Shown here: positions 16,296 through 61,070 of the stretch, one piece after another
How positions within the stretch are numbered: position 1 is the first letter of the stretch
Layout of the letters: each line of letters begins with the position of its first letter
Assembly (NCBI GenBank): GCA_964016885.1
Contig: OZ024740.1
Location: 222,456,001-222,520,000 of the forward strand
Source of the DNA: Eledone cirrhosa
Lineage: Eukaryota
Length of the DNA: 64,000 nt
Reading direction: 5' to 3'
Position numbers and translations under genes: made by a program
The notes under the pieces: generated by a model
Told to the model about the DNA's origin: nothing
The model's database searches: none
The model's input: the letters and a program-made list of their open reading frames with translations, nothing else

Positions 16296-16299
<4 letters not shown>

Positions 16300-16342
16300 C
16301 TGATGATTTCTAAAGAATGAAACAGTTCTAGTCCTGTAGAAT
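16296..16342 (+). ncRNA. type I hammerhead ribozyme motif
   Basis: ATTC-CTGATGA-T TTC taaa GAA T-GAAA-CAG ttctagtc CTG-TA-GAAT: intact core, stems I-III pair, GUA triplet. Confidence 0.7.
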
Positions 16343-16548
16343 CTCATCTATATTAAAATGTTTATACTCTGCTATGTATTGAGTACCTTACTTACTGTGG
16401 TTACCTCCGATTCAACCCGGAATAACTTACCTATATATATATATATATATATGCCACTTTGCAAATGTTATCATGAGAAAATGAATTCAGGTGATGATAT
16501 TTAAAAATTTTCTTTCTATGACTTTTCTCAATTTTGTCTGTCTGTCTT

Positions 16549-16597
<49 letters not shown>

Positions 16598-16821
16598 CAC
16601 TCACTCTGCTGTACACTTTCTCTCTTACTGTACTCTCCACATGCAAATTTCACCTTTTTGTTAGAATATATTCAAAGATATATCATAAAAAAGCTATACT
16701 TCATAACTAGTTCCAACTTTCTTCATAAATATATGCAATAAGAGATCCTAAATGAAAATGTCAACAGTAACAAAAGTATCTAAGTAAATTTGTTTTTATG
16801 TAACATGATAGTAATTTGTGT

Positions 16822-17060
16822 GAAGGGACATGGTTAAAGTGTTTGGCTCATAATAGTAAGGTTGTGTTTTCAATTCCTTGACTGGTCACATTGTATCCTT
16901 GAGAGAGACACCTTATTCCACATTGCTCAGATGTACCAACCATGATACACATTGTGCCAATCTGAATCCTGAGAGAACTATGTTAATTTCATGAAAAGGC
17001 AGTTCTGTAGTTTGAATCAACTGAAGCACTCATCGTTAGAAATGATAGAGATCCACCAGC
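16822..17060 (+). mobile_element. degenerate tRNA-derived SINE (family B)
   Basis: Similar to the reverse complement of 45005-45320 (head, gtccttgag..agacac.ttatt.cac.ttgctc, ctgaatc..gagagaactatgttaa). Confidence 0.5.
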
Positions 17061-18117
17061 AATATGATATGAATTTACATACATAGATTTCTACAACTTT
17101 ATCAAATAACAATTTCTTTGGAAAGGTTAGAATGCAAATGTATATAAGAGAAGGTATTTTCAAATAATGGTCTAGTTTCAAATAAATGTATTGGATTTAG
17201 CCTTTTAGAAATCTCTAGTATAAACTATAATTCTGACAATACCTCTCAAACATTTCTATATTTTTCAGGTTGCCTGATTATAGCATGACTATAGTGATTC
17301 AGTCTAGTAATCTTATATTAAATGCTAGAGGATTGACATAATAAAGGGGGCTTAGTGGCAGAATATTGGGCTTAATAAGTCACAGCGATGAATTAAATCC
17401 TATTTGAGAAACTACATGCTACAATCTATTATATATAAAGCTCCAGCATTGATCTTTGGAAGTACATGTCATTGGAATTTAACCATGTCAAGAACAATAT
17501 CACCTACTACCAACACCGTACATACAGATAACATCTAATGCAGATACCATAATACTTCATTCTTGTTTATTCTTTAAATCCTATTCTTTAAATCCAGTTC
17601 TAATGTTAGCTTCTCTTACTAGACATTCACTTCTATCTATGAGAAGTTTTGCTATATCTTTTACTAAGATTTGACAATTTAGTATTATATAATACCACCA
17701 ATATATCAGCATGAGTCACATCTGGTTGGATTGGTAGGAAGTTGTCATAAAAACTGCATTGTATCTCCGGCTAAAGTATTTAACTAATAAATGGTCATGC
17801 CCACCAAGCTGTACACAGATACCATAGATAAGTGATTCCTAAACTTTTAACTCACTACCAAGGAGTCCTTTTATCTAAATAAATTTTCACACAGAAACTC
17901 TGCTACAATTTCTACCCTCTCAGATTGTTATACAGTGTGAATAACAATTGAAAGACAAAAATGCTTATAATTATAGAAGAATATATACTCAGTAGCATTT
18001 ATATACTAAGGATTTAACAAAATAATTGAAATTTTGAACATAACTCATGCATTAATTGGCCCCAAGCTGGAAACTGCTGTCATATGTACATAGATAAAGA
18101 TTAGAGTTATAAGTGCA

Positions 18118-18302
18118 AAGGTCGACTGAAGAGTTCATGGGCTGACTAGCTAGAACTGTGAAATCTTGCATGCGTTAATTCCAACACTTCTTATTAATAA
18201 CTGCATAGTTTCTTTCCAGGGACTATGTTAAAAAATAAATTGCATTTAGTCATTCCATGAGAGTATCTTAGTCAGCCTATGAACTTTTCAGCTGACTCTC
18301 GT
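18118..18302. mobile_element. mariner-derived MITE
   Basis: TIRs ggtcgactgaagagttcatgggctgact / agtcagcctatgaacttttcagctgact; second copy at 27728-27926. Confidence 0.7.
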
Positions 18303-22913: not shown

Positions 22914-23027
22914 ACGCAGATTACTTATAACGATAAGTTGTTACCCCATATATATATATATATCACTCGATATGCAAATTAGGCTGCACAGCCGTTAATA
23001 TGCATAAGGAAAGAATATACTTTCAGA

Positions 23028-23116
23028 TGTTCAATCATCTGGCAGGAAGGTATATGTTGCTGACGATAGCTAATAAGCTTGAAACTAGTACATCGTTCCT
23101 TTATCAGTGTTGAACA
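23028..23116 (+). ncRNA. type I hammerhead ribozyme motif with palindromic stem III
   Basis: ATGTTG-CTGACGA-T AGCT aata AGCT T-GAAA-CTAG-TA-CATCGT (23054-23096); stem I extends through AAGG/CCTT and TGTTCAA/TTGAACA. Confidence 0.75.
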
Positions 23117-23398
23117 AATGAGCAACGATGGTTGCTAGACACTGTACGGCTTAATTCGGGATGTTTGTTTGTTTACAAACACACCGAGCATTATAATAAG
23201 TGTTTGGTGAATCATACGTACATAAATATATGTGTGCATGTATGTATATATATATACATACTACTGTACGTCTGTATGTACGTATACATACATACTTATA
23301 TTTAAGTAACAGCCATACTAAGAGTGAGAAATGAAATTTTGTTTCATTTTTTCCGTTTATATATATATAGTTGTGTTATAAACAACATAAGGCAATTA

Positions 23399-23459
23399 TT
23401 TCATTTACCAGTGGTTTCTTAAAAGCAAATAAATTTTGCTTTCAATCATCAGAATGAAA
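23399..23459 (-). ncRNA. hammerhead ribozyme motif (inverted copy)
   Basis: Reverse complement of 23491-23551, differing in loop 2; core intact. Confidence 0.8.
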
Positions 23460-23490
23460 AAATCCAATGTCAATAAATACACCAGGATTT

Positions 23491-23551
23491 TTTCATTCTG
23501 ATGATTGAAAGCAAAAATTGTTTGCTTTTAAGAAACCACTGGTAAATGAAA
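23491..23551 (+). ncRNA. type I hammerhead ribozyme motif
   Basis: TTTCATT-CTGATGA-TTGAAAGCAAA aattg TTTGCTTTTAA-GAAA-CCACTGG-TA-AATGAAA. Confidence 0.82.
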
Positions 23552-23647
23552 TAATTGCCTTATGTTGTTTATTACATAACTATTAAGCTCTGTAACCTAC
23601 ATAGAGCACTCTTTTTTCCTGGACCTTTCCGACGGAATTACTTCATT

Positions 23648-23696
<49 letters not shown>

Positions 23697-26820: not shown

Positions 26821-27112
26821 AAAATAATTAAGTCATACGAAACGAGATGTTTTTTTTTACCTTAATTTATTCATATATCCTGGTGTTTCGAGAAATATCT
26901 CTTCTTCCAAGGAAAATAAAGGAATAATTATGGTGACCAAAGTGGCTTTCTATGCTAGCTGAAGTGGTTTTATTCTGGTATAGCAAACCACATCGGACAC
27001 TGGAAGAGTTCCTTTATTTTCTTTCGAAGAAAAGATATTAATCTCAAAATATCAGGACATAAGAATAAATTAATGTAAAAAAGCACCCCTTGTTTATTAT
27101 GACTTAATTTTT
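26821..27112. repeat. old imperfect inverted repeat (~105-bp arms)
   Basis: 26821-26925 pairs with 27010-27112 (aattaagtcata/tatgacttaatt, aaaataaaggaa/ttcctttatttt). Confidence 0.7.
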
Positions 27113-27727
27113 TTTTTATACCATATACAATGCTGCAAGCAAACTACAAATTCCTTCTTCACTTATTACATTGTTGCTTAAGCCCAAGTTCTTCATTGTT
27201 GTGATTTTTGTTAAGATTTTACATTTATTGTTTATTTTTCAGAATTAATTGATAAATATAATTTGTTTTAGCAATTTTCATGCAGGTATTCAGTGTTGGG
27301 TACTACATATATGGCAGGGACTCAGGTTTCAAAAGATTAAATTTCTGATATTTTTGAATAACTTGTCATTTTATTTGTAACATTTATATCTATCAAATAT
27401 CATTTACAAATCTTTGGCTGACTCAAGGCTACAGTAGAGAGCACCAGACCAAGGTTCAGTCCATCGAGATCACATCTGAAACTACATATATGTAAAGTAA
27501 GCTTCTTAAGCTTCTTAAGAAGAAACTATTAATGATACTTCTATAAAATAATAGAAAAATAGTGGCCATCACCCCTTGATGCATATATGAAGTAGCACAA
27601 AATTCATTCTAGCTTATAATGTCTGTTAAATAAGTTGGGGTGTCAAAAAAACTTTGCTCCCAGATCCAAGGAGTTCTTACTACACCACTGCTACTAAAAT
27701 ATAGCATTCATACTCACATTAATATTT

Positions 27728-28129: not shown

Positions 28130-28162
<33 letters not shown>

Positions 28163-28285
28163 GAATATAGACATAGAATATTCGAAAATATTCTGTATGT
28201 TTATAATAAACATTTTGAAGACCTAATCGCTATAGAATAGAATACGTCACGTATTACAATTAGATTCTCGATAAAAGCAAGGGAA

Positions 28286-29878
28286 GTAATCTACGCGTTT
28301 CATTCTCGTTAGAAATCATCAGGACTACATATCCAGTGCTTTTATCGAGAATGACACAGCTAGAGACTTATAGAATACTTAGCTGTGTACAGGAACTGGT
28401 TTGAAAGAGCGGTTGCCGGTCCGGCAGAAATTAGAAATTGGAATAAATGCTCTGAAATAGCGATATATATGTGAATATAGACATAGAATATTCGAAAATA
28501 TTCTGTATGTTTATAATAAACATTTTGAAGACCTAATCGCTATAGAATAGAATACGTCACGTATTACAATTAGATTCTCGATAAAAGCAAGGGAAGTAAT
28601 CTACGCGTTTCATTCTCGTTAGAAATCATCAGGACTACATATCCAGTGCTTTTATCGAGAATGACACAGCTAGAGACTTATAGAATACTTAGCTGTGTAC
28701 AGGAACTGGTTTGAAAGAGCGGTTGCCGGTCCGGCAGAAATTAGAAATTGGAATAAATGCTCTGAAATAGCGATATATATGTGAATATAGACATAGAATA
28801 TTCGAAAATATTCTGTATGTTTATAATAAACATTTTGAAGACCTAATCGCTATAGAATAGAATACGTCACGTATTACAATTAGATTCTCGATAAAAGCAA
28901 GGGAAGTAATCTACGCGTTTCATTCTCGTTAGAAATCATCAGGACTACATATCCAGTGCTTTTATCGAGAATGACACAGCTAGAGACTTATAGAATACTT
29001 AGCTGTGTACAGGAACTGGTTTGAAAGAGCGGTTGCCGGTCCGGCAGAAATTAGAAATTGGAATAAATGCTCTGAAATAGCGATATATATGTGAATATAG
29101 ACATAGAATATTCGAAAATATTCTGTATGTTTATAATAAACATTTTGAAGACCTAATCGCTATAGAATAGAATACGTCACGTATTACAATTAGATTCTCG
29201 ATAAAAGCAAGGGAAGTAATCTACGCGTTTCATTCTCGTTAGAAATCATCAGGACTACATATCCAGTGCTTTTATCGAGAATGACACAGCTAGAGACTTA
29301 TAGAATACTTAGCTGTGTACAGGAACTGGTTTGAAAGAGCGGTTGCCGGTCCGGCAGAAATTAGAAATTGGAATAAATGCTCTGAAATAGCGATATATAT
29401 GTGAATATAGACATAGAATATTCGAAAATATTCTGTATGTTTATAATAAACATTTTGAAGACCTAATCGCTATAGAATAGAATACGTCACGTATTACAAT
29501 TAGATTCTCGATAAAAGCAAGGGAAGTAATCTACGCGTTTCATTCTCGTTAGAAATCATCAGGACTACATATCCAGTGCTTTTATCGAGAATGACACAGC
29601 TAGAGACTTATAGAATACTTAGCTGTGTAGAGGAACTGGTTTGAAAGAGCGGTTGCCGGTCCGGCAGAAATTAGAAATTGGAATAAATGCTCTGAAATAG
29701 CGATATATATGTGAATATAGACATAGAATATTCGAAAATATTCTGTATGTTTATAATAAACATTTTGAAGACCTAATCGCTATAGAATAGAATACGTCAC
29801 GTATTACAATTAGATTCTCGATAAAAGCAAGGGAAGTAATCTACGCGTTTCATTCTCGTTAGAAATCATCAGGACTAC
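28286..29878 (-). ncRNA. six tandem type I hammerhead ribozymes (cores 28286-28328, 28596-28638, 28906-28948, 29216-29258, 29526-29568, 29836-29878)
   Basis: Minus strand GTAGTC-CTGATGA-T TTCT aacg AGAA T-GAAA-CGCG-TA-GATTAC. Confidence 0.88.
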
Positions 29879-30079
29879 ATATCCAGTGCTTTTATCGACA
29901 TACAGAATATTTTCGAATATTCTATGTCTATATTCACATATATATCGCTATTTCAGAGCATTTATTCCAATTTCTAATTTCTGCCGGACCGGCAACCGCT
30001 CTTTCAAACCAGTTCCTGTACACAGCTAAGTATTCTATAAGTCTCTAGCTGTGTCATTCTCGATAAAAGCACTGGATAT

Positions 30080-30742
30080 GTAGTCCTGATGATTTCTAAC
30101 GAGAATGAAACGCGTAGATTACTTCCCTTGCTTTTATCGAGAATCTAATTGTAATACGTGACGTATTCTATTCTATAGCGATTAGGTCTTCAAAATGTTT
30201 ATTATAAACATACAGAATATTTTCGAATATTCTATGTCTATATTCACATATATATCGCTATTTCAGAGCATTTATTCCAATTTCTAATTTCTGCCGGACC
30301 GGCAACCGCTCTTTCAAACCAGTTCCTGTACACAGCTAAGTATTCTATAAGTCTCTAGCTGTGTCATTCTCGATAAAAGCACTGGATATGTTGTCCTGAT
30401 GATTTCTAACGAGAATGAAACGCGTAGATTACTTCCCTTGCTTTTATCGAGAATCTAATTGTAATACGTGACGTATTCTATTCTATAGCGATTAGGTCTT
30501 CAAAATGTTTATTATAAACATACAGAATATTTTCGAATATTCTATGTCTATATTCACATATATATCGCTATTTCAGAGCATTTATTCCAATTTCTAATTT
30601 CTGCCGGACCGGCAACCGCTCTTTCAAACCAGTTCCTGTACACAGCTAAGTATTCTATAAGTCTCTAGCTGTGTCATTCTCGATAAAAGCACTGGATATG
30701 TAGTCCTGATGATTTCTAACGAGAATGAAACGCGTAGATTAC
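30080..30742 (+). ncRNA. three tandem type I hammerhead ribozymes (cores 30080-30122, 30390-30432, 30700-30742)
   Basis: Same motif on the plus strand; predicted cleavage after 30116, 30426 and 30736; middle copy has a stem I A>T change at 30392. Confidence 0.88.
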
Positions 30743-30895
30743 TTCCCTTGCTTTTATCGAGAATCTAATTGTAATACGTGACGTATTCTATTCTATAGCG
30801 ATTAGGTCTTCAAAATGTTTATTATAAACATACAGAATATTTTCGAATATTCTATGTCTATATTCACATATATATCGCTATTTCAGAGCATTTAT

Positions 30896-30954
<59 letters not shown>

Positions 30955-31019: not shown

Positions 31020-31090
<71 letters not shown>

Positions 31091-31459
31091 GTATCAACAG
31101 TATTAGTATATATTGATACTATATGCATATATATATTCAGAAAACAATGAAGTTTCATTTACATGTAGTTAGATGTTTATTGTGTTAGTGTATATATATA
31201 TATATATCTGTAACTTTTTAACCCCATGATGAAGTTTTGTTTGCAGAAACTTGTGTTAGTTTCAAAATGCATCGATTCTTTGGTGCTTTTTATACATAGT
31301 ATATAACAGCTCTGCATGAAACCCATCACATTGAGCTTCTAACCTTCTGGTACTAAACTTAGTAATAATAATATTATTATTATCACTACTATATATATGT
31401 ATATATATATATAAAATAAAATATATAAGTCAAATGTTGAAAATTTGGCTTCGTTTATT

Positions 31460-31514
31460 ACTGCTATATATATTTCAGTGACAGCCATTTTGGGCTGTGA
31501 CCTCTTCAGGCAGT
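31460..31514 (-). ncRNA. hammerhead ribozyme in the inverted Penelope terminal repeat
   Basis: ACTGC-CTGAAGA-GGTCACAGCC caaaat GGCTGTCACT-GAAA-TATATA-TA-GCAGT. Confidence 0.8.
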
Positions 31515-32284
31515 CCGAATTAGTGTGGTAGAGACAAGTACACATGTTGTTGAGGTGTTTAACTTTCTCAATACTCTGATATGCCCAGTTCCTGGTTGGG
31601 TTGTTATTTCACTGAGGAACTGGAATCATATGAATTTAAACAAATGAATTTCAGCGTCAGAGGACATCTTCTCCTCTCATTGGTCAGTTGTGAGAACATT
31701 CCTCAGTCAGAAGTCTATAGATATTCGTTCTGAGGTGAGGCAATCTGTAGTGGTTGTTATTGTTGTTGTTAAGTACATCTGACCTCTACTCTTATGTTCG
31801 TAGTGGTGTTGGTGTTGGAGTCAGCTCAAAAAAATGATAAAGTGGTAGAAGGAATAAGATGGTAAAGGAACAAAATAAAATAATCAAATAAAATGTGTGT
31901 GTGTTATACCCAATCTCAATGTTAGAAAGATTTATAAGGTCACTCCTCCCATTGGTCAGTTTTGAGAGCATTCCTCAGTCAAAAGTCTATAGAAATTCTT
32001 TCTGGGGTGAGGTTCCTTGTAGTGTTTGTTTTTGCTATTGTTAAGTACATCTGACCTCTACCCTTATTTTGGTAGTGGTGTTGGTGTTGTGGTCAGCCTA
32101 TGTCTTGCTGCGGCTGACATTTAGAAGTATCTGTGTGTGTTTGTTCATCCATCCTGCCACCATTTCTCGTGGTGGTGGTGATGGGCGGGGGGGGGGGGGG
32201 GTCTGCCATGTATATGAAGAAATAGAAGGCATTAAAATTAAGAAAAAAGAAAAATATATAATAAATAGAAAATAAATGAAAAAT

Positions 32285-32495
32285 TAATGAAAAATGAAAA
32301 ACGAAAAATGAAAAATGAAAAATGAAAAATGAAAAATGAAAAATGAAAAATGAAAAATGAAAAATGAAAAATGAAAAATGAAAAATGAAAAATGAAAAAT
32401 GAAAAATGAAAAATGAAAAATGAAAAATGAAAAATGAAAAATGAAAAATGAAAAATGAAAAATGAAAAATGAAAATTGAAAAATAAAAATGAAAA
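32285..32495. repeat. (TGAAAA)n microsatellite within the PLE 3' UTR; shorter counterpart at ~35495-35560
   Basis: Direct inspection. Confidence 0.95.
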
Positions 32496-33300
32496 TTCAA
32501 ATAAAATAAAATGTGTGTGTGTGCTATAACCAGAAAGTTGTTGGATAAAGTGGTAGGAGGAACAAGATGGTAAAAGAATAAAACGAAATAAGATAATCAA
32601 ATAAAATGTGTGTGTGTGTTATAACCAATCTCAACTTAAATAGAAGGCAATAAAGTGAAGAAAACGGAAAACAAGTGAAAATCAAGTAGAATAAAATGTG
32701 TGTGTGTTATAAAGATCTTGCCCGCATTAGAAAGGCTGTGTCAGAATCAATCTCTAGGCTATCATGGTGTCTGCTCAGCTTGGGTGGGTCTCTATGGCTT
32801 GAGGGGAGTTCCTCACCTATGGTGTTGTTACTGCCCATATAGCTTGAGGGATGTCTGGCCGAGTGGTGTCTACATGTTCTGGAGAAGTCCCTATAGCTTG
32901 AGGGGAGTTCACTTCTCAGTGTGTTGCTACTGTCCATATAGCTTGAGGAAGGTGTCTGCATGTCCCGAAGAAATCGGTTCTGAGTTTTATCAGGCGGCTT
33001 CCACCTCTTAGAATCTCGAGGGTCTCATTCAGACATAGTTTGCATATGCCAGATCACCCTTTATCGGGTGGTACTTTTCTAATTATGGACCAGGCCAGAG
33101 AGTGCGGGATCCTGTCCAGCTTAAGCTTGCAGATCAGGTCGGAAAGAGACGTACTTTTCCTTTTGGTCTCCTTATTGAAGGAACGGCGATGGTTTTACCA
33201 ACGGTCTTTAAAGCTCGTTGATGTGGCTCCTATGTAGAGGTGTTCGGTGTTGGGGGTTTTAACCCTAGATCCGTATATTCGGTTCTTCTTAAGGCATTCA

Positions 33301-34995
33301 TTACGATGGGCTTCAGCACAGGTAACGGACATGATTGGGCTCTTCCTGCTGAAGCAGATAAAAGATGAAATCCCTGTCTGGGCCGCGGATTATATCGTGA
33401 CGATGCTCTCTTCACAGTATATGACCACAGCACCACTATGTTGGAGGGAATGAGGAGGCGTATTCGCCATTTCTTTATGAACCAGGGGGCTCAGTATCGA
33501 ACTAGTCCCAAATAGAAAGGTAGTTAACTTCCTAGACACCACCCTAAACCTGAACACCGAGTAATACTACCCCTACCACAAGCCCAACTTGAAACTTTTG
33601 TATCTTAACGCCAAGTCAAACCACCCTAGATCCATAACCAAGGCCGTGGTTAAGAGTGTCTCGGACAGGATCTCCAGCCTGTCCGCAAATAAGGAAATCT
33701 TCGATAACAACGCGGAATATTACAACGCAGCTCTAAATAAGGCGGCATATGGCCAAAATATAACATATAGTCCGAGACGCCGGGATGGGGATGGCCCAAC
33801 GGACACCCACATTCGCGTTTTCCGGGAGGGGGCGCACCCTAACAATACAGGCAGAACAGAAACAAATAAGCACCATGAGCCCGACACCACCACACGGGCG
33901 ATGGTGACGAGTACGCTTAACCATAAGAAGAAACCCAATATGAGTAGCAGTCTCAGGGGTGATGCTGACCACCCCGGGCCCGACGACCCCAACCGCAGGA
34001 CACGTGTGTGTGTGGAGGGGTGGGTGGGTGGGTGGGGAGGGTAACGGGGGACCACCCCACAGTGGATCTCCCAGCGCGGGCAACGACCACCCCACATATT
34101 CGGGCTGTGAAGACAGCAAAACGCATAGCGCCCAAAGGGGAACCAAGAATGCTGGAACCACCAGCTACCCAACAACTCTCCAATAACTCACGACGCCCCC
34201 AATCCACCCATATAGGAGTAGACGCAGAAAAATCACGTGGTACAATCCACCCTACTCAGCGGCCGTAAAGAACAGCTTGGCCCGATCATTCTTTGGAGCA
34301 CTTGATAAATGCTTCCCGAGGGACCATAGATATCACAAGATCTTCAACAGACACACTGTGAAGCTCTCGTATTCCACCACGAGAAAACTGCCCCAACACA
34401 TAGCTAGCATCAACAGGAGTAGGCTTAAAAACCACACACAAACAGAAGATGGCAATATAAGCACCCAGCAGAACCACGTGGAAGGAGGGAAGGAGAGACC
34501 CAGTGCCCACCCAAGAAACTCAAACAGTCCCGGGGACGCCCCACCATGCTCGGGGAAAGAGCACCATGTAACACGTAACGGGAACCCTACACTAGGCACG
34601 CAGAGTTCGACCACCCTCTGCAACTGCAGAAACCCGAATCATGCCCCCTTAGTGATGAATGCCTTAAGAAGAACCTAATATACGGATGTAGGGTTAAAAC
34701 CCCCAACTCCGAACACCTCTACATAGAAGTCACATCAACGAGCTTTAAAGACCGTTGGTATAACCACCACCATTCCTTCAATAAGGAGACCAAAAGGAAA
34801 AGTACGGCTCTTTCCGACCTGATCTGGAAGCTTAAGCTGGACAGGACCCCCGTACTCTCTGGCCTGGTCCATAATTAGGAAAGTACCATCCGATAAATGG
34901 GGATCTGGCATATGCAAACTCTGTCTGAATGAGATTCTAAGAGGTGGAAGCCGCCTGATAAACCTCAGAACCGACTTCTTTGGGACATGCAGACA
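33301..34995 (+). pseudogene. PLE RT C-terminal half, linker and GIY-YIG endonuclease, frameshifted
   Basis: ORFs 33589-34044 and 34277-34678 plus flanking frames carry the motifs listed for the element. Confidence 0.85.
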
Positions 34996-36334
34996 CCTCA
35001 GTGCCGGGACCTTCCTCAAGCTATATGGACAGTAGCAACACACTGAGATGTGAATTCCTCTCAAGCTATAACGACTTCTCCAGAACATGTAGACACCTCC
35101 CGGCCAAACCCCCCTCAAGCTATATGGGCAGTAACAACACCATAGGTTGGGATCTCCCCTCAAGCCATAGGAACCCACCCAGGCTGAGCAGACACCATGA
35201 TAGTCTAGAGATTGATTCTGACACAGCCTTTCTAATTTGGCCAACATCTTTATAACAGACACGCATTTTATTCTACTTCATTTGTCACTCGTTTTCTGTT
35301 TTCTTCACTTTATTGCCTTCTATTTAAGTTGAGATTGGTTATAACACACACACATTTCATTTGATTATCTTATTTCGTTTTATTCTTTTACCATCTTGTT
35401 CCTCCTACCACTTTATCCAACAACTTTCTGGTTATAGCACACACACACATTTTATTTTATTTGAATTTTCATTATTTTTCAATTTTTATTTACATTTTTC
35501 ATTTTTCATTTTTCATTTTTCATTTTTCATTTTTCATTTTTCATTTTTCATTTTTCATTAATTTTTCATTTATTTCCTATTTATTATATATTTTCTTTTT
35601 TCTTAATTTTAATGCCTTCTATTTCTTCATATACATTGCAGACCCCCCCCCCTCCCGCAACACCCCACCTCCACCACCACCACGAGAAATGGTGGCAGGA
35701 TGGATCAAGAAACACACACAGATACTTCTAAATTTCAGCAGCAGCAAGACATAGGCTGACCACAACACCAACACCACTACCAAAATAAGGGTAGAGGTCA
35801 GATGTACTTAACAATAGCAAAAACAAACACTACAAGGAACCTCACCCCAGAAAGAATTTCTATAGACTTTTGACTGAGGAATGCTCTCAAAACTGACCAA
35901 TGGGAGGGTGACCTTACAAATCTTTCTAACATTGAGATTGGGTATAACACACACATTTTATTTGATTATTTTATTTTGTTCCTTTACCATCTTATTCCTT
36001 CTATGACTTTATCATTTTTTTTAGCTGACTCCAACACCAACACCACTACCAACATAAGAGTAGAGGTCAGATGTACTTAACAATAACAAGAACAATCACT
36101 ACAGATTGCCTCGCCTCAGAACAAATTTCTATAGACTTCTGACTGAGAAATGTTCTCACAACTGACCAATGAGAGGAGAAGATGTCCTCTGATGCTGAAA
36201 TTCATTTGTTTAAATTCTTATGATTCCAGTTCCTCAGAGAAATAACAACCCAACCAGGAACTGGGCATATCAGAGTATTGAGAAAGTTAAACATCTCAAC
36301 AACATGTGTACTCGTCTCTACCACACTAATTCGG

Positions 36335-36389
36335 ACTGCTTGAAGAGGTGACAGCCAAAGATGGCTGTCACCGAAATATATATAGCAGT
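36335..36389 (+). ncRNA. hammerhead ribozyme in the Penelope 3' terminal region (core C3>T)
   Basis: ACTGC-TTGAAGA-GGTGACAGCC aaagat GGCTGTCACC-GAAA-TATATA-TA-GCAGT. Confidence 0.75.
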
Positions 36390-36555
36390 TATAAACGAAG
36401 CCAAATTTTAAACATTTGACTTATTTATTTTATTTTACATTACTCCGGAGTAACGAAACCAACCTGCGCACTTCGTCGAGTGCTCCAATCTGCATACTGA
36501 GGTGTGGTATACAACCAACATATACTCAAAATCTATATATAGTTATATATATATC

Positions 36556-44043: not shown

Positions 44044-44311
44044 TAAATATATATCAGCCGGATGGCTAGAACAAGTAAAAGAGTAAAAAAGTAGCTGATG
44101 ACTCAGAGAAAAGAGAACTCAATAACAAAGTAGAGTTCAACTATTCATTTATTAAGGTTAAATAGAGATTTTCACTATTTGGACTTAATATATGAATATA
44201 TATATATATGTATATATATAAATGTGTATATATATATATATATATATGCAAGCGTGGAAGATGGAAGATAAACGATGATGATGATGATGATGATGATGAT
44301 ATATATATATA

Positions 44312-44632: not shown

Positions 44633-44664
44633 TAAATATATATATATATATATAGAGAGAGAGA

Positions 44665-44990
44665 TTTTGAGTATATGTTGGTTGTTTACCGACACCTCAG
44701 TATGCAGATTGGAGCACTCAACAAAGTATGGAGTTTGGTTTGTTCACTCTGGAGTAATGTAAAATAATTAAATCAAATATGTAAAATTTGACTTTGTTTA
44801 TTATAAATTATAGATTTACTGCTATATATATTTCGGTGACAGCCATCATTGGCTGTGACCTCTTCAGGCAGTCCAATTGGTGTGGTAGAGACAGGTAGAC
44901 ATGTTGTTGAAGTGTGTTTTACTCCGTCAATACATCGATATGTCCAGCTCCTGGTTGTGTTGTTATTCCTCTGAGGAACTGGAATCATAT
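44665..44990 (-). mobile_element. solo ~325-bp copy of the Penelope terminal region with hammerhead ribozyme (44818-44872)
   Basis: Homologous to 36220-36535; ACTGC-CTGAAGA-GGTCACAGCCA atga TGGCTGTCACC-GAAA-TATATA-TA-GCAGT; flanked by (TA)n. Confidence 0.85.
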
Positions 44991-45004
44991 CATATATATA
45001 TATA

Positions 45005-46029: not shown

Positions 46030-47190
46030 TAGAATAGATACCCATTTAGTTTAGACATAGTTTCCAGTCTACACTTCTGTCCCCACCTCCACAGCCATCA
46101 ACTTAATCATGGAAAATATCATCGCCTATACCGTCCTCAGTTGCAGACATCTGTGAATTGCTCTCTATCATCATGTGTAACACCTTTGTCCAGTTTGAGG
46201 GCTCCATATACAAACAAATCTCAGGACTTCTAATGGGATCGAGTCATTCAGGCCTGCTGATCATCATGTACATGGACCAGTTGGGGTGCACAGTACTCAC
46301 CACCTGGTGCTCTTGCTCCTTCTTCTCCAGGTACATAGATGACATCCTTATGCTAACTTCATCACGTAAAGAAGCCATTAAGATCTACAACATTTTTGAA
46401 AACATTGACGCACGCATAAAACCTGAGGTTGATCATCCAGAAACCACTGGATCCCTCTTTCTACTCATTTTTACATTAAGAATCACAGAGGAGGGCTCCA
46501 TATATATATATATACCAAATTGTACAGGAAGGATGCCTGCAGAGATATTCTTGTACACTAAAACTCAGCCCTTCCCTACAGAACAGCCTATATAGGGAAT
46601 AAGATCTCCCAGATATGCAACAGATGAAGCAAGGGTAGTGATAGTCATGCCAGCATAGTGGAATTCCAAAGATTTCTCACCAAAAACGGCTACATTACTT
46701 TTCTCACCAAAAACTGAAATGCCACGGCAGCAGCATATAAAATAACAAAAGGACATGTGCCCCCAAGGTTAACATATGCTACCTAAACCTGTCACATTCC
46801 AATGAAAAGATGACAGCTGCCATCAGACAAGCCAACCATAGGGAGGGACTGAATATATGCCTGGCACGTTTGGGACCCTCATTGAGGAGGCTGCTCCACA
46901 GACTCCAACCAATATACAGCTGCATATTCACACTTCCAAATTGCAATATCAACAACGCAGAAGTATGCATAAGAGTGAAACTTATATAGCTCCTCATACA
47001 TTCAAAGAACCATAAGGAGTCTACATATATGGATCAAGGAACATCTGATAATAAGAGCCTCTTGCATTAAAAACCATCTTGACAGATGCTGAACTCAAGA
47101 TATTGAGGTCCCTATAGGATGACTGAAAGGAATTTGGGAAATTTAAGGATTAAGGAAGTCATTTTAATCAACCAAATAAAATCAAAGATA
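46030..47190 (+). mobile_element. degenerate Penelope-like RT relic (different family)
   Basis: FSLDIV, FVQFEGSIYKQISGLLMGS, SRYIDDILML in ORF 46158-46595; downstream extent approximate. Confidence 0.75.
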
Positions 47191-47848
47191 AATTATAGGT
47201 TAGAAATGCATGAGGCAGAATGGTTACTAGCATCCCTGCACATGCATATACATTTTTCAAACACATAGACCAGTTAAGGAAAACAACTCTGAAAACTCTG
47301 ATCGCTCATTAGTTTTGTCTTGGACAGTTTCAGCTTTGCATCTGAAAAGAGATTAATAACCATGAAATATACTAAAATAAACTGGGTAAAACATTACTTT
47401 GTTTTATTTTATATCATTTGTATCATATTGGTAATATATTTACTTTGTATGCATTTGCATAAAGAAAGCTATTCATTGTTACATAGAAAGTATAAAGATA
47501 TTTTATTTTACAATAATCAAATAGTAGGAATGCATTTGTGGTTAATGTGTTCTTATCACAAACAAATGGTTTGAATTCAGTTTTATTCTGTGGCAAATTG
47601 TGCAAGATTTTTGGAATATAGTCTTTGGTTGATCCAATGCCTTGTGAATGAAATGTGGATGACAGAAATTGGGCATAACCTCATCGTATATCATCATCAG
47701 CATCGTTTAATGTCTATTTTCCATGTTATCATGGGTTAGACGAGTTATCTCATTGTGAGACAAGTCAGGTTAGAAGTCCGTTTTTTGCTCACACAAAACT
47801 GATTTTGGCTTGGTTTCTACAGCTGGATGCGCTATTTAATGCCAACCC

Positions 47849-51527: not shown

Positions 51528-51718
51528 ATAGGAACGAGTAGGACCCCAACGGCTGAGCTCAAGCCGTTTCGACGGCTAATTCGGGACTAAATTTTAGTCC
51601 AGAATTAGCCGTTGAAACGGCTTGAGCTTAGCTGACGGGGTCCTACTCATTCCTATTACCCACTCTACTACCCTTTGGTGTGTTATGGTCCACCTGGTTC
51701 CTTACCACATTTCCTCTG
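51528..51718 (+). mobile_element. short fold-back element (~60-bp arms plus tail), same family as 36556-37385
   Basis: ataggaacgagtaggacccc.../...ggggtcctactcattcctat hairpin; shared tail; in (TA)n. Confidence 0.75.
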
Positions 51719-52368
51719 TTTATATATATATGTATGCATGTGTGTTTGTATGTGTGTGAGTGAGACAGAAAGATAGAGAGTGTATGTGTGTGTGTGAGTT
51801 CGACTGAATTTATAAGAAAGTTGAAAAAGTATTAAATACAGAAGTAGAGCGTAAATATTCATTGTACCACTGAGATTATTCTCTCTTTATTAATCAATGT
51901 TTTGTTAATCTTACTGACCATGCATCATATAATATCCATAAAAGAAAAAAGAATTGGGACGGCTATGGCTGGAAAGTCTTTCACCAAAGATTTTTTCAAC
52001 AAGTGCTGACAAACAATAGCATCAACAAGTGTTACTTATGCAAGTTCCAGTTATCAGTCCTTCTGCTCCTTGTAGCAATGAGCTATGCTTATACATGGTA
52101 TCTGACTATAGCTAGATGGAGTGAACTAAAATGTTTTAAGTGTTTAGTGATATAGACCAAACCTAGAATGAATGAGAGGATGTGTGTTGTAAACTCTTTA
52201 GCCCATATTCTATCATTCATCACCACCATTTTTGCAATTATGTTTTCATGCTTGGGTTGGTTGTATAATCCCTCTCCATCAAAGCTTCATCATAAATTCA
52301 GTCGACCACACACACACATACACTTTCTCTCTATCTTACTGTCTCACTCACACACATACAAACACATA

Positions 52369-52415
<47 letters not shown>

Positions 52416-53812
52416 AGATAGATAAAGATTAACATTGAAAAAGCACAGGGGTATATTTACTTTGTCATCAATTTTGTGGGGTTCAGCATGCTGAGATCAG
52501 TTCTTCCCCTTTCTGCTCTTTTGCAGAACTTCTTGATCTAATTATTAAAATACATATATCTCATGTCTGATCCAGTGTAATCGTCTCCCTTGCACATTTT
52601 GCAATTATGTTTTCATACTTACATTGGTTGTATATTACATCTGATTCCAACAACATATCATGTACACTAATATTACACATCTAGCAGAGCATACTTGCCT
52701 CATTTTTTTCTAGCCTTCACAGATTAAACATTTTGTACTGATGATGAAAATGATGATGGAGGTGATGATGATATTGATGATGATAATAGTGGTGGTATTG
52801 GTAAAATGTGAGGGTAAAGTTGAAATGGGAATATATAAATCTATATATATAAAATCAATAACTCTCAATAACTGATAAAAATAACTCTCAGATGACACCA
52901 ACATATCTCTTTAATCACAAATTGCCTGTTATTCTACTTCTTCCATTTCCAATGTATACATCTCAACACAAACACAGATGTTCTTTCATCTTATATTTTA
53001 TTTGGTATGGGTCAATTCTACCATGTGTGTGTGTACTATCACTTTATTTTGATAGGTTGTTATTGATGTTATTGTTACAAATCAGTCAGGGAATGAAGGA
53101 AAGAGTTTGTCACCTTTTTGGGACCTGCAAAACTGGTAGAAGGTTTGGAGTAGTTTATTGCACCTTCAAACTTAAGACATGGCCTGAATTATTGCAATAT
53201 ATTGGACTTCCAGATGACAGTAGTGTTAAACATAATTTCAGATAAAGCCTAACATGTAAGTAGATCTCAGTGAGATACCAACTTAGATGACAAAGAACCA
53301 GAACGTTATCTTGTCTGATGTCCTAACAATTTTACCAATCCACTGTCCTAGACTGGTACTGTATTTCATTGATGAAAGGCTACAGTGACTGCAGTGGGAT
53401 TTAAAATCAGAGTGCAGAGAAACAGAAGAAACGATGCAATGCATTTAGTCCTCTACTAATTCGCCACATATTATTGCCTCTTTACTTTAGATCAATCCTA
53501 ACTCAGCAAAACTATCACCAAAAACATTCTAGCAGGGGCTATCCCCTTTGTATATAAAATTACATTGTGAAATCTATCCATTGTTTTTTAAAGAAAGTAG
53601 GGTGTGGTTTCATGGAGATTTGCCTGCTATTTCTTGTAGCTTCAGCAACCAAATAGAGTTTCAACATTAGTTCATGTTTTGTTATGTTGGGTATGTATCA
53701 GATCTTACCCTGCAATATAAATATTGATATAAATTCCTGCTCGGTTATTTTTTGCCAATTATGTAAGTCATGCCTCAAACAGTGGGGGAGAGAGAAAGGA
53801 GAGGTAATGAAG

Positions 53813-53847
<35 letters not shown>

Positions 53848-53945
53848 ATAATAATAAATTTGAAGACTAAAATCCAAAGAGGGCTCGATAAGGATAAATA
53901 TATATCAAATATATAAGAACCGTAGAGCAAATATTTATTAAAATA

Positions 53946-54021
53946 ACAGATTAAAGTTTAAGCAAAGAGTCACTGCTTTCATCCTTAACGGGATCTTCTG
54001 AAACTAACAAAGTCAATCTGT
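53946..54021 (-). ncRNA. decayed hammerhead motif in a (TA)n-flanked insert
   Basis: AGTTT-CAGAAGA(U4>A)-TCC cgttaa GGA T-GAAA-GCA..TGC-TT-AAACT; extended stem ACAGATT/AATCTGT. Confidence 0.5.
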
Positions 54022-54065
54022 GAACGTAGAAGTGAATATTTCAAAAAACGTTGCAATAAATATAT

Positions 54066-54329: not shown

Positions 54330-54545
54330 TCTATATAAAATAGAAATAGAATCTTTCGCCTTTATTTCTGATTAAAGAAATTTTAGCCTGATATTGGGGT
54401 TTAGAACCCTCCAATGTACGTCAATACTCACTATTTTCCATTTCTTAGAGGGTTCTAAACCCCAATATCAGGCTAAAATTCTTTTAGTCAAAAATACAGC
54501 AAAAGCTTCTATTTTTCTATTTATATTTTCAAACTCACTTGCTTT
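54330..54545. repeat. inverted repeat, ~80-bp arms
   Basis: aattttagcctgatattggggtttagaaccctc / gagggttctaaaccccaatatcaggctaaaatt. Confidence 0.8.
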
Positions 54546-54555
54546 AAAAAAAAAA

Positions 54556-54592
<37 letters not shown>

Positions 54593-54599
<7 letters not shown>

Positions 54600-54739
54600 C
54601 GTATTTAAGAAAGCCACAACAATGCAAAGGGAAATCTCGAGGTAGGAAGTGAAATATAGATAGGAAAAACAGGTGAAAGTGGCTTTCTTAAATACGTATT
54701 TTTACACATTTCACAATGCTTCAAGCAAACTTTAACACC

Positions 54740-54741
<2 letters not shown>
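54593..54741. repeat. small fold-back insert in (TA)n (25-bp arms plus tail)
   Basis: aaaaatacgtatttaagaaagccac / gtggctttcttaaatacgtattttt. Confidence 0.75.
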
Positions 54742-54792
<51 letters not shown>

Positions 54793-58781: not shown

Positions 58782-58826
58782 TGATCCTGGGACTCCTTGC
58801 TCCAACTACATCAGCTTATTGGAATG
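58782..58826 (+). CDS. candidate 45-nt second coding exon (VILGLLAPTTSAYWN, phase 1-1)
   Basis: Acceptor ttttcttataaccatttcag and donor ATG|gtacag; joins in frame to 56035-56074 and completes a signal peptide. Confidence 0.55.
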
Positions 58827-59559
58827 GTACAGTTAACGTTTTTCATACTACTTTTCAATTCTAAATTAATTTAGGTTATTAAAAATGTTGTTTACATAAC
58901 AAAATCCAATGCAAAATGCTTTATAGTGTTCATTCTTGCAGATGGTCATTTTTTTGTGATCAAAATGTTTAGGCAAGATGATCAAAATGAGTAGTAAGAT
59001 GTGTCTATTACTATGTATTTATCAAGGAACTGTCAGCTTGTGTCCTTCACCAAGTTGGCTGAATAGGACTGTATCTGTTGCTGATTTCACCAGCTTATCA
59101 ATAGAATAAATATTGCTGCAGTTCATATTGCAGGTTACAAACACACTATCTCAGTGTCCTGGAACCCTGAACCATCACCCTAGTCACAACAATCAAGATA
59201 TAGACAGCCATCTATAAGAAAGAGTCCTATGAAATGAATTGGCTCTTTCAGCACATCTCCTTTACCATCCTCTTGGGTTACACATTCAACATTTTATCTG
59301 ACGAAACTATAATATGACACAAAATGATTACATTTGTTTGATGTATTTACAAAGAAAAATTTTGCGGCAGGAAAAAAACATCCATGCTACAATTAACATT
59401 AATTTAAAAAATACTCTAAAGTGTATTTAGATTGTAACTTGACATTGCTTTAATCATGTTTCATCTCCTTAGAAACTGTAGAAATCTCAAACACAGAAAA
59501 TGACCATAGCCACAATCAATTGCTAAAGACACTTAAATACCATGTGGTATTATAAACTA

Positions 59560-59678
59560 CAGTCTGAGTTCAAATCCCGCCAAGGTTAACTTTGCCTTTC
59601 ATCCTTACAGGGTCGATAAAATAAAGTACCAGTAATGTACTGGGTAATTGCTGGCCTTGTGCCTAAAGTAGAAACAAT
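59560..59678 (+). mobile_element. SINE family A, 5'-truncated
   Basis: Homology to 41741-41923; TSD attataaacta. Confidence 0.85.
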
Positions 59679-60533
59679 TATAAACTATGTGATGGATTAA
59701 GTATACTATCAAACAGTCACAAATATTTAAATTGATAATTATACATTAATAATTAAAATATTATGCATCATATATTATTATTATATATTATGCATCATAC
59801 ATTAGACATAAATATTAAGGCATATTCAAATTATATTGGGCTTGTTAATTATTTTAAAGTTGAATTAGGTGATTTATTAATTTAAAAAATACATTTAAAT
59901 CCACCATTGTCCAGAAAAATTTCAATTCAACATTCATACATACATATGTCTGTCTGTAAATGTGTATGGGTGTATTTGCCTGTAGCAGTATACACATGAA
60001 ACCATGTAGCTTAGTGCTTAAGTTGTTTGATACATGATCACAAGATTAATAGTTCAATTTCTCATGGCACTATGTGTTCTTGAGCAAAATAAATTAATTC
60101 ATATTGCTTCAGCACACTCATGTGGCAAAAATGTATAACGTTAACAGTAGCAATATCACAGCTGCGTTAATGCTATGGTTAATTAATACTTGCTTCTCAA
60201 GTTTGAATTATATTAAATAAGCAATCATCAAAAGTATATTATTTGTAAAATTTATGTATAAAAAGCTACAAGTTTATTTACCTCAGTAGCATGTTAGTAA
60301 GTGTTGGTGGTGATGGATTGAAATACAAGTATTTGGCATTCTCACTCAGTTATATATTTCTATTCTGAATCAAACTGTGTTAGTACAGCTATATATATAT
60401 ATATAGAAGTGGTTACACAACAGTTAGTTAACCATACCGAGAACAATTATCGGTATGGTGAACTAACTTCTACCTAACTCGTCCCATGGACTGAGTGCTC
60501 TACCACTACAGATATTACTTTCCAGTGTTCTAC

Positions 60534-60561
<28 letters not shown>

Positions 60562-60569
<8 letters not shown>

Positions 60570-61066
60570 ATACTTTGGGAGGGTGTTGCCAATAAGAAAC
60601 ACACGCACCAGTTGCTTTCACTTCAATTTAATTTATTATATATTTATAAATTTACAAATTTATAAATTTCTGGTTGGTTGGTTGGTTCCACAACCAGATA
60701 TTTGTTTATATATATATAGTCATAGTTCTTTCGTCACACACTCTGTGACCTCTTCAGTGACTGGGGATTTCTTTCTTCGTTTCTGTGCCTTTCCTTTCTT
60801 CTTTCCCCAGTCACTGAAGAGGTCACAGAGTGTGTGACGAAAGAACTATGACTATATATATATAAACAAATATCTGGTTGTGGAACCAACCAACCAACCA
60901 GAAATTTATAAATTTGTAAATTTATAAATATATAATAAATTAAATTGAAGTGAAAGCAACTGGTGCGTGTATTTCTTATTGGCAACATGACCCTCCCAAA
61001 GTATAACAATATCGGTTTCAACACACGATTTCAGATAAAGAATCTTGCTAAACAAATTCAGAAACG

Positions 61067-61070
<4 letters not shown>
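60562..61070. mobile_element. fold-back element (~205-bp arms plus ~58-bp tail) with two divergent hammerhead motifs (60718-60762 minus, 60809-60853 plus)
   Basis: Arms 60562-60767 and 60804-61012 nearly identical; AGTCA-CTGAAGA-G-GTCACA gagtg TGTGAC-GAAA-GAAC-TA-TGACT. Confidence 0.8.

What the first reader, a model, noticed from the sequence alone, without database searches (positions are those of the whole stretch)
16296..61070. Window-wide signature: (TA)n-embedded fold-back insertions with a one-sided tail, most carrying hammerheads
Seen: sequence-unrelated inserts share one plan: inverted copy of the 3' part, junction or spacer, direct copy, then roughly 25-100 bp of extra tail present only on the direct copy, all within TA microsatellite. 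Cases are 23368-23652, 28161-30900, 31413-36535, 36556-37385, 51528-51718, 54593-54741 and 60562-61070; 54330-54545 and 26821-27112 are weaker. Where a ribozyme is visible, the two copies always point away from the centre. Known: Penelope elements often have inverted terminal repeats with a 3' tail and carry HHRs. Inference: many apparent MITE-like palindromes here are not DNA transposons but products of a single PLE-type integration mechanism acting on a zoo of small ribozyme RNAs. This would be an autonomous/non-autonomous ribozyme-retroelement system that prefers (TA)n.
Basis: partly seen in the sequence, partly recalled or inferred. Interest (0 to 1): 0.82.

Follow-up and report, generated by a model that had tools for sequence, protein, structure and literature searches.

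The report
Twin hairpins mark Penelope retroelement ends
The fold-back inserts in TA repeats are likely cut-short copies of Penelope-like retrotransposons, a known pattern, but in Hydra-clade relatives the two insert ends sit just before two copies of a conserved hairpin that we found in no paper searched and that likely tells the reverse transcriptase where to start, which would explain the one-sided tail.

Summary
All 7 main cases are real head-to-head fold-backs with a one-sided tail; 6 of 7 have (TA)n on both sides, 4 of 7 carry type I hammerheads (HHR). This architecture is published for Penelope-like elements (PLEs), and tail = distance between two RT start sites was shown in vitro (PMC11167929). 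31413-36535 and a missed element (8500-14175) hold Hydra-clade RT/endonuclease remnants. In another animal's contig, two equivalent mini fold-backs are 96-98% identical to 3' ends of ORF-bearing PLEs, so 'zoo of small ribozyme RNAs' is mostly unnecessary; only the 310-bp array looks like a retrozyme. New: 78 of 92 related loci carry a covarying hairpin (GCTC-stem-loop-stem-2-nt bulge-GAGCACT), twinned 55-83 nt apart behind the HHR. Of 21 mapped ends, 8 stop 3-6 nt before hairpin 1 (tail-less) and 8 stop 0-8 nt before hairpin 2 (tailed), at a TA-like triplet. A model built from outside loci alone finds the 23368 tail (E 4e-7). Likely mechanism: two hairpin-positioned RT starts, primed from both ends of a cut (TA)n. 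Three main tails lack the motif; 26821 looks like a MITE.

The parts
31409..33310 (-). Inverted, 5'-truncated, tail-less copy of a Hydra-clade PLE (endonuclease remnant, 3' UTR, HHR at 31509)
33307..36440 (+). Direct 5'-truncated Hydra-clade PLE copy: broken RT (GLYRDD), thumb, CxCX5C linker, endonuclease, 3' UTR, HHR at 36340 (one core mismatch)
36441..36535 (+). Tail with long-loop hairpin 1 variant starting 36442
   Evidence: (E 6.4, weak)
23368..23583 (.). Mini fold-back, HHRs at 23452(-) and 23498(+), 11-bp stem II
23584..23652 (+). Tail with canonical hairpin 1 at 23587
   Evidence: (E 4.3e-7 with a model from outside loci)
28161..29898 (-). Tail-less arm of retrozyme-like array, 5.6 x 310 bp, 6 HHRs
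29899..30900 (+). Tailed arm of the array, 3.2 x 310 bp, 3 HHRs; tail about 30 nt without the Hydra hairpin
36556..37385 (-). Fold-back, arms 36631-36868 and 37147-37385, tail 36556-36630 with a one-mismatch hairpin 1 at 36625; no HHR found
51528..51720 (+). Mini fold-back of the 36556 family, tail 51654-51720; no HHR
52292..52459 (-). Inverted paralog of the flanks of 51528 without the insert: empty site is an unbroken (TA)n
54593..54741 (+). Mini fold-back, 26-bp arms, 38-nt tail; no HHR, no hairpin motif
60562..61069 (+). Young fold-back (arms 99% alike), HHRs at 60757(-) and 60814(+), 60-nt tail without the hairpin motif
60406..60536 (+). Extra mini fold-back in (TA)n, tail with hairpin 1 variant at 60477
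13186..14175 (-). Second Hydra-clade PLE: 50-bp tail-less inverted arm (14125-14175) next to (TA)n, then broken RT/endonuclease remnant
8503..8611 (-). 3' end (8560-8611) and 59-nt tail of that element, cut off from its body by an LTR-retrotransposon insertion; tail resembles the 60406 tail but fails the descriptor
44655..44991 (-). Solo 3' end of the 31413 family in (TA)n, HHR at 44867, same tail end, hairpin 1 at 44755
16298..16431 (+). Solo HHR (16300) + hairpin 1 variant (16366) + tail in (TA)n
53845..54059 (-). Solo 3' end in (TA)n with decayed HHR-like core (seen by eye) and long-loop hairpin 1 at 53928
   Evidence: (E 0.13)
44050..44195 (-). Possible solo 3' end with one-mismatch hairpin at 44136
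54333..54558 (.). Old fold-back, unassigned (no HHR; (TA)n on one side)
26821..27114 (.). Symmetric inverted repeat outside (TA)n with a 7-bp direct repeat in both flanks: MITE-like, not part of the system
46036..47229 (+). Remnant of a different PLE lineage (YIDD RT; relatives carry C-terminal GIY-YIG)

Best explanation
The fold-backs are likely 5'-truncated insertions of Penelope-like retrotransposons, and in Hydra-clade relatives two copies of one conserved hairpin sit just 3' of the two places where inserts end, so the element's RT-endonuclease likely binds either hairpin and starts cDNA a few bases upstream of it, using both ends of a cut (TA)n as primers. Shown: Hydra-type ORF remnants in two window inserts; HHR, then hairpin 1, hairpin 2 and the start codon in related elements; tail-less ends before hairpin 1, tailed ends before hairpin 2; TAT/ATA at both end points; TA microhomology at tail-less arm ends; insertion into a pre-existing (TA)n. 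From the literature (another clade, in vitro): both strands cut and extended, two internal start sites, tail = their distance. Inferred: the hairpin acts as RNA and positions the RT; the TA triplet pairs with the target primer; two cDNAs made from opposite target ends stop early at independent points and are joined head to head by microhomology; one start at hairpin 1 and one at hairpin 2 gives a one-sided tail, single priming gives solos. Inserts without the motif (28161, 54593, 60562) likely come from another PLE lineage using the same logic; the 310-bp array is likely a non-autonomous retrozyme moved in trans.
For: tblastn of six Hydra-type proteins hits 33307-34996(+), 33302-32952(-) and 14155-13186(-). 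Motif in 78 of 92 related loci (33 of 920 shuffled loci), twin in 43 of 92; in 40 of 45 RT clusters at 75% identity, median pairwise identity 51%; 144 of 152 instances on the ORF strand; spacing 55-83 nt in 46 pairs. First variable pair C-G 73 / T-A 30 of 105; 92.3% of cells paired vs 81.4% shuffled, 20-56% for slid pairings. Ends: 8 of 21 at hairpin 1 -3..-6, 8 of 21 at hairpin 2 0..-8; of 36 HHR-to-(TA)n stretches 20 hold no hairpin, 16 hold one (run begins 51-70 nt after it), none holds two. TAT/ATA at -9..-2 in 96 of 116 vs 17 of 116 downstream. Model from outside loci: top 4 of 10 window hits are all tails of (TA)n-bounded inserts. TA/TAT/ATAT at the arm-tail border in 9 of 9 window fold-backs inspected. 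L081 minis are 97.7% and 95.6% identical to ORF-bearing L086 and L043 3' ends. Tail-less arm reaches further 5' than the tailed arm in L081:6720-7128 and in the 28161 array. Literature.
Against: No biochemical or RNA data. Only 1 window hit of the model is strong (E 4e-7); the next three have E 0.13-0.74 and 36441 has E 6.4. The relaxed descriptor that finds 7 of 12 window tails was widened after I had seen them. 5 of those 12 tails have no match. 5 of 21 mapped ends were uninformative (2 contig ends, 3 with a template of another family), and the test set was chosen as copies lacking a second hairpin. The four outer pairs never vary in the alignment because the motif was picked by those letters, so they carry no covariation; pairs 2 and 3 are broken in 23 of 88 and 25 of 78 rows. 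Many loci share accession prefixes and so may come from few hosts. In the Poseidon element the start site is not homologous to the cut DNA, unlike the TA pairing I infer. Hairpin 2 lies 2-39 nt before the first ATG, so a role in translation is possible. Unit counts in the 28161 array may have changed after insertion or in assembly. Hydra-1_Obim in the supplement shows no exact motif by eye.
Confidence: 0.66

Rival explanations
1. Same PLE origin, but the hairpins act in single-stranded cDNA: the GIY-YIG nuclease recognises them and nicks a longer (tandem or rolling-circle) cDNA a few bases upstream, so ends are set by resolution rather than by RT start.
For: End mapping cannot tell RNA from DNA; pairs are mostly Watson-Crick; PMC8557442 proposes EN-mediated resolution for the tail; PMC11167929 recalls that the D. 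virilis tail was needed for EN recognition.
Against: In the only in vitro system the tail equals the distance between RT start sites; a few G-U type pairs occur at positions 2 and 3; cDNA is the complement, yet the motif is strand-fixed with a one-sided bulge.
Confidence: 0.17
2. Fold-back self-priming: one cDNA is made, folds on itself at a palindrome and is copied back until hairpin 1; the inverted arm is a copy of the first cDNA.
For: Palindromic, loop-less centres at 51528 and a TCGA junction at 29898; self-priming proposed in PMC3846280; arms 100% alike in L082; tailed copy is the longer one in 31413, 8500 and L082.
Against: Tail-less arm extends beyond the tailed arm in L081:6720-7128 and in 28161; one L081 insert has two tail-less ends.
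Confidence: 0.1
3. One reading: most small fold-backs are separate non-autonomous ribozyme RNAs mobilised in trans by one PLE.
For: 28161 is an ORF-less 310-nt tandem HHR unit with a strongly paired circular fold (z -4.7); its HHR core is 89% like the solo at 16298 over 36 nt; parents of five small window inserts were not found.
Against: Where a parent was found it had an ORF; 44655 is a solo end of the ORF-bearing 31413 family; 3 of 7 main cases lack an HHR; tails fall in at least two classes.
Confidence: 0.2
4. The small palindromes are MITEs that prefer TA, or assembly fold-back artefacts.
For: Fits 26821 and perhaps 54330; arms of 28161 and 60562 are 99-100% alike.
Against: Asymmetric ends, variable centre within a family, HHR enrichment, ORF remnants, 85-96% diverged arms in most cases, empty site without a non-TA duplication.
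Confidence: 0.04

Closest known systems
Hydra clade of Penelope-like elements (Craig et al. 2021, PMC8557442), e.g. Penelope-13_HM, Hydra-2_Ajap
   Same: GLYRDD RT, C-terminal endonuclease with CxCX5C linker, type I HHR near the 3' end, (TA)n target, inverted 5'-truncated copy, optional tail at one end
   Different: Tails here are 51-96 nt rather than 30-40; the twin hairpin is visible by eye in their consensus sequences but the words hairpin and stem-loop do not occur in the supplement nor hairpin in the main text; window copies use an ACTC/GAGT variant and longer loops
Poseidon of Anolis carolinensis (Frangieh et al. 2024, PMC11167929)
   Same: Both target strands cut and extended, two internal RT start sites, tail = their distance, AT-rich target
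   Different: Start sites lie inside the ORF in an AC-rich stem-loop, not homologous to the target; no repeated motif reported in the parts I read; here a duplicated motif in the 5' UTR and a TA-like triplet mark both ends
Non-LTR retrozymes (Cervera and de la Pena 2020, PMC7229834; bioRxiv 10.64898/2026.07.22.740005)
   Same: 28161: 310-nt tandem unit, type I HHR with short palindromic helix III, self-paired circle predicted
   Different: Here the array is head-to-head with PLE-type ends (TA-pairing arm end, one-sided tail) in (TA)n; 'inverted' had 0 hits in PMC7229834 and 'tail' 0 hits in the preprint
L1 twin priming (recalled)
   Same: Second target strand primes a second cDNA, giving an inversion
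   Different: In L1 the two parts do not overlap; here both arms copy the same 3' end from two fixed start points

Membership tests
Hydra-clade PLE (31413-36535, 8500-14175) | RT followed by C-terminal GIY-YIG-type endonuclease | tested here: met
   tblastn with full-length Hydra-type proteins; Pfam names neither the fragments nor the relatives
Hydra-clade PLE (31413-36535, 8500-14175) | GLYRDD catalytic motif as in published Hydra proteins | tested here: met
   31413 element, frame at 33369-33512; motif seen in supplement proteins; region missing in the 8500 element
Hydra-clade PLE (31413-36535, 8500-14175) | CxCX5C linker; CxxC and CxH in the endonuclease; no CCHH | tested here: met
   linker split by a frameshift at about 34640, and with a stop in place of x at 13610; CKLC and CRH at 34910-34996
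Hydra-clade PLE (31413-36535, 8500-14175) | RWK and DKT motifs | not testable with these tools
   5'-truncated in the window; present in relatives P0005, P0006
Hydra-clade PLE (31413-36535, 8500-14175) | Canonical HHR in the 3' repeat | tested here: met
   31509(-), 36340(+), 44867(-); none found for the 8500 element, whose 3' UTR is interrupted
Hydra-clade PLE (31413-36535, 8500-14175) | (TA)n target | tested here: met
Hydra-clade PLE (31413-36535, 8500-14175) | RT groups with reference Hydra elements in a tree | not tested
   no reference sequences were held as files
Hydra-clade PLE 3' end (small inserts) | Continuity with an RT ORF of the same family | tested here: inconclusive
   met for 44655 and for L081 minis; no parent for 23368, 16298, 60406, 36556/51528, 54593, 60562 (no genome held; no match in loci)
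Hydra-clade PLE 3' end (small inserts) | Hairpin 1 in register behind the arm end (feature defined here) | tested here: inconclusive
   strong for 23368; variant in 16298, 60406, 36556, 53845; not met in 28161, 54593, 60562, 51528
Non-LTR retrozyme (28161-30900) | Tandem 170-400 nt units each with a type I HHR, no ORF | tested here: met
   310-bp units, 9 HHRs; no coding ORF
Non-LTR retrozyme (28161-30900) | Expression as self-cleaved linear and circular RNA | not testable with these tools
   no RNA data could be laid; predicted circular fold z -4.7
MITE / DNA transposon | Symmetric terminal inverted repeats, fixed centre, transposase-type duplication | tested here: not met
   7 main cases asymmetric; centre differs within 36556/51528; empty site pure (TA)n. 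Possibly met for 26821 only
Known Rfam RNA family (twin hairpin) | Match to a curated model | tested here: not met
   0 matches at E<=1 in 5 loci holding the motif

The most novel reading that the evidence does not exclude
Hydra-clade PLEs carry an undescribed duplicated RNA element that works like a miniature telomerase-RNA module: a hairpin that docks the RT plus an adjacent TA triplet that aligns the (TA)n primer. Two such modules on the RNA and a protein dimer on both ends of the cut target would explain, with one rule, microsatellite targeting, head-to-head inversion and tail length, and would define a 60-130 nt cis-signal sufficient to have any RNA written into (TA)n.
Probability: 0.45. 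Interest if true: 0.8.

Novelty: new variant of a known kind. Interest (0 to 1): 0.62.

Why it matters
What is added is a concrete, conserved cis-element that predicts both ends of Hydra-clade inserts to within about 8 nt across 40 RT clusters. PLE RTs are the closest relatives of telomerase and how they choose start sites, make inverted repeats and tails and target microsatellites is named as open in PMC8557442; the motif turns that into a mutagenesis experiment. It also gives annotators a 40-nt diagnostic for MITE-like palindromes and solo hammerheads that are really PLE ends, and the retrozyme array with PLE-type ends is direct anatomical support for mobilisation of retrozymes by PLE proteins.

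Tried and rejected
No whole genome was held, so genome-wide family tests could not be run. Rfam gave only microRNA-like hairpin noise and no hammerhead or other ribozyme family on the window and two sub-regions. My first HHR script had a pattern bug and found nothing; one search replaces it. Sequencing runs: no RNA holder listed; three runs of one sample hold 74-82% of the words of 22960-28460 and may be the source sample, so no support is drawn; no reads were laid, so polymorphism, junction reads and expression remain open. Viral contigs hold no relative. Nucleotide BLAST of 13 window inserts against the 92 loci gave no useful match. A word-based protein search for the 46107 remnant found none; the full HMMER search did. 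No HHR or other ribozyme in 36556/51528, 54593, 54330, 26821. Short motifs of the 36556 tail were absent from the Naiad/Chlamys/Hydra consensus file, so a Naiad identity is unsupported. A twin-motif register in the 310-bp unit was looked for by eye and by descriptor and not found. Earlier scan notes: nothing. MITE origin rejected for the 7 main cases, kept for 26821. Host species not determined.
Full report
Setting. The window is AT-rich animal-type DNA with LINE pieces, an LTR retrotransposon remnant and many (TA)n runs. No genome was held and the host was not determined.

Observation. Self-BLAST and arm alignments confirm a head-to-head inverted pair with an extra tail on one copy in 7 of 7 main cases. 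Six have (TA)n on both sides. In 9 of 9 fold-backs inspected (the seven plus 60406 and 8500) the tailed copy reads TA, TAT or ATAT where the tail-less arm runs into its flank. A type I hammerhead descriptor gives 16 hits against a mean of 0.22 in 100 shuffles: six independent loci, each with (TA)n within 270 nt downstream, against 17% of random positions. Four of the seven main cases have HHRs, always pointing outward; 36556, 51528, 54593 and both weak cases have none. Rfam does not recognise these HHRs. The inserts are not all unrelated: 36556 and 51528 share arm end and tail end but invert at different points, and 44655-44991 is a solo 3' end of the 31413 family with the same tail end. The flanks of 51528 recur inverted at 52292-52459 without the insert, as an unbroken (TA)n: an internal empty site. 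26821 lies outside (TA)n and has a 7-bp direct repeat in both flanks; 54330 is unassigned.

Identity of the long inserts. The 'spacer' of 31413-36535 is the longer, direct copy of a broken RT-endonuclease ORF; the inverted copy abuts it at about 33310. Its motifs (GLYRDD, CxCX5C, CxxC, CxH, no CCHH) match the Hydra clade as defined in PMC8557442 (section 11 read; supplement proteins). The same proteins reveal a second Hydra-type remnant at 14155-13186(-) whose 50-bp tail-less arm lies at 14125-14175 beside (TA)n and whose 3' end and tail lie at 8611-8503, beyond an LTR-element insertion. A third remnant at 46036-47229 belongs to a different, YIDD-type PLE lineage.

What is known. PMC8557442 (abstract, passages, sections 11, 15, 20, supplement parts 1, 2, 52, 53 and two supplement searches seen) describes the inverted 5'-truncated copy, a 30-40 bp tail at one end, (TA)n bias, HHRs and non-autonomous derivatives, and lists Penelope-13_HM with an inverted copy and HHRs on both strands. 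PMC11167929 (parts 1-2 of 4 seen) shows in vitro for a Poseidon element that both strands are cut and extended, RT starts at two internal sites, and the tail is the sequence between them. PMC3846280 (passages) proposes self-priming at palindromes. PMC7229834 and PMC4209133 (passages) and bioRxiv 10.64898/2026.07.22.740005 (part 1 of 5 and passages) cover retrozymes and PLE hammerheads.

The twin hairpin. The tail of 23368 resembled by eye the 3' ends of published Hydra consensus sequences. I fetched 92 loci of relatives (78 from metagenome contigs, the best 80 of 462 matches; 14 from genome contigs, evidently host DNA in bins). Of 62 dereplicated stretches behind an HHR, 46 hold GAGC[AG]CT (1.4% in shuffles). 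Defined by sequence alone (GCTC within 30 nt upstream), the motif occurs in 78 of 92 loci (33 of 920 shuffled), twinned in 43, and in 40 of 45 RT clusters at 75% identity, median pairwise identity 51%; most of the 14 loci without it lack the 5' or tail region or carry variants that a model still finds (L087). 144 of 152 instances are on the ORF strand, twins lie 55-83 nt apart (46 pairs), a 2-nt bulge (TT, TC, TA) precedes GAGC, and the first variable pair is C-G in 73 and T-A in 30 of 105. On 96 of the 104 extracted motifs (8 long or atypical ones left out) 92.3% of cells pair against 81.4% shuffled and 20-56% for slid structures; the outer four pairs are invariant by construction and pairs 2-3 are often broken. 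The order in intact elements is HHR, 30-60 nt, hairpin 1, hairpin 2, then ATG 2-39 nt later (35 of 36).

Ends map to the hairpins. Aligning ended copies to intact ones gave 21 rows: 8 end 3-6 nt before hairpin 1, 8 end 0-8 nt before hairpin 2, 2 are contig ends, 3 had a template of another family. Of 36 HHR-to-(TA)n stretches, 20 contain no hairpin, 16 contain one with the run 51-70 nt after it, none contains two. TAT or ATA lies at -9..-2 of the motif in 96 of 116 cases against 17 of 116 downstream. So tail length equals hairpin spacing and both ends fall in a TA-like triplet.

Back to the window. A covariance model built from outside loci only ranks the 23368 tail first (E 4.3e-7); the next three hits (E 0.13-0.74) are the tails of the solos at 53845, 44655 and 16298, and the 31413 tail scores E 6.4; five other hits at E 4-10 are noise. 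A relaxed descriptor, widened after seeing these tails and so partly circular, finds the motif 2-11 nt behind the arm end in 7 of 12 tails among 14 starts in the whole window; window copies often show the compensated outer pair A-T in place of G-C, and the two copies of the 31413 family differ by a compensatory change in the second inner pair. 28161, 54593, 60562, 51528 (deletion relative to 36556) and 8500 (decayed) have no match.

Small RNAs or truncated elements? Locus L081, from another animal, holds two mini fold-backs in (TA)n with outward HHRs and a one-sided tail with hairpin 1; they are 97.7% and 95.6% identical to the 3' ends of ORF-bearing L086 and L043. Such minis are therefore extreme truncations of autonomous families. 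The window's 310-bp array is different: ORF-less, 9 HHRs, units nearly identical, circular fold z -4.7; it fits a non-LTR retrozyme and carries PLE-type ends.

Mechanism. In L081:6720-7128 the tail-less arm reaches 67 nt further 5' than the tailed arm, with a 7-nt overlap at the junction; in 28161 the tail-less arm has 5.6 units against 3.2; another L081 insert has two tail-less ends. A fold-back copy of the tailed cDNA cannot give these, whereas priming from both ends of the cut target can, and both-strand extension is shown for Poseidon. I therefore infer: the protein binds hairpin 1 or 2 on the RNA, the TA triplet pairs with the nicked (TA)n, two cDNAs grow from opposite ends, truncate independently and join. 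PLE origin of the main cases about 0.9; hairpins as the signal that fixes ends about 0.8; acting as RNA at RT initiation about 0.65. Rivals are DNA-level nicking, fold-back, and a translation role for hairpin 2.

Novelty. Searches of the paper library, the supplement of PMC8557442, Rfam and earlier scan notes showed no description of the twin hairpin; subscription journals, Repbase entries, the supplement of PMC11167929 and bioRxiv supplements were not seen and may hold one. Verdict: known insertion architecture, new cis-element within it; interest 0.62.

Noticed in passing
window 8612-12560 (-): LTR retrotransposon remnant (RT, RNase H, integrase, protease ORF pieces; 49-bp direct repeat 8613-8661 / 12509-12557) inserted into the 3' UTR of the second Hydra-type PLE.
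   Followed up: partly
window 14240-15860: Tandem array of about 115-bp units, each holding a variable (TA)n between short inverted repeats; its end resembles a Tc1/mariner-type terminal repeat (recalled), suggesting a MITE-derived satellite.
   Followed up: no
window 22964-23244: (TA)n-bounded 280-bp piece with a weak HHR at 23060(+); possible solo retrozyme monomer.
   Followed up: partly
window 16012-16255 (-): (TA)n-bounded piece with a decayed HHR-like core seen by eye.
   Followed up: no
window 28085-28146 and 31076-31136: About 45-bp near-palindromic unit repeated directly on both flanks of the retrozyme array; long target duplication or pre-existing minisatellite.
   Followed up: partly
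window 51474-52459: Larger inverted duplication (57 bp at 100%, 93 bp at 90%) whose left arm hosts the 51528 insert.
   Followed up: partly
window 36631-36700 and 51540-51650: The HHR-less 36556/51528 family has a hairpin with compensatory changes between the two members just upstream of the arm end; no Rfam match.
   Followed up: partly
window 60562 and 28161 tails: Both tails lacking the Hydra hairpin begin with the same ATATCG and soon TTTCA; possible signal of a second PLE lineage.
   Followed up: no
window 55629-55899: Old symmetric inverted repeat with internal microsatellites, no HHR; MITE-like control case.
   Followed up: partly
window 5822-8500, 25100-26570, 37390-39990 and fragments: Several copies of an RTE-type LINE (label recalled) ending in (GAT)n; three of them abut PLE ends in AT-rich sites.
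   Followed up: no
window 20928, 21428, 41747, 45659, 49985, 59558, 62675: Dispersed 120-200 bp repeat family (SINE-like), 76-96% alike.
   Followed up: no
L079-L092: Eukaryotic PLE clusters with (TA)n sit in 14 contigs filed as bacterial genomes, i.e. likely host contamination of bins.
   Followed up: no
L081, L086, L089: Nested pile-ups of several Hydra families, each inserted in the (TA)n left by the previous one, as in this window.
   Followed up: partly
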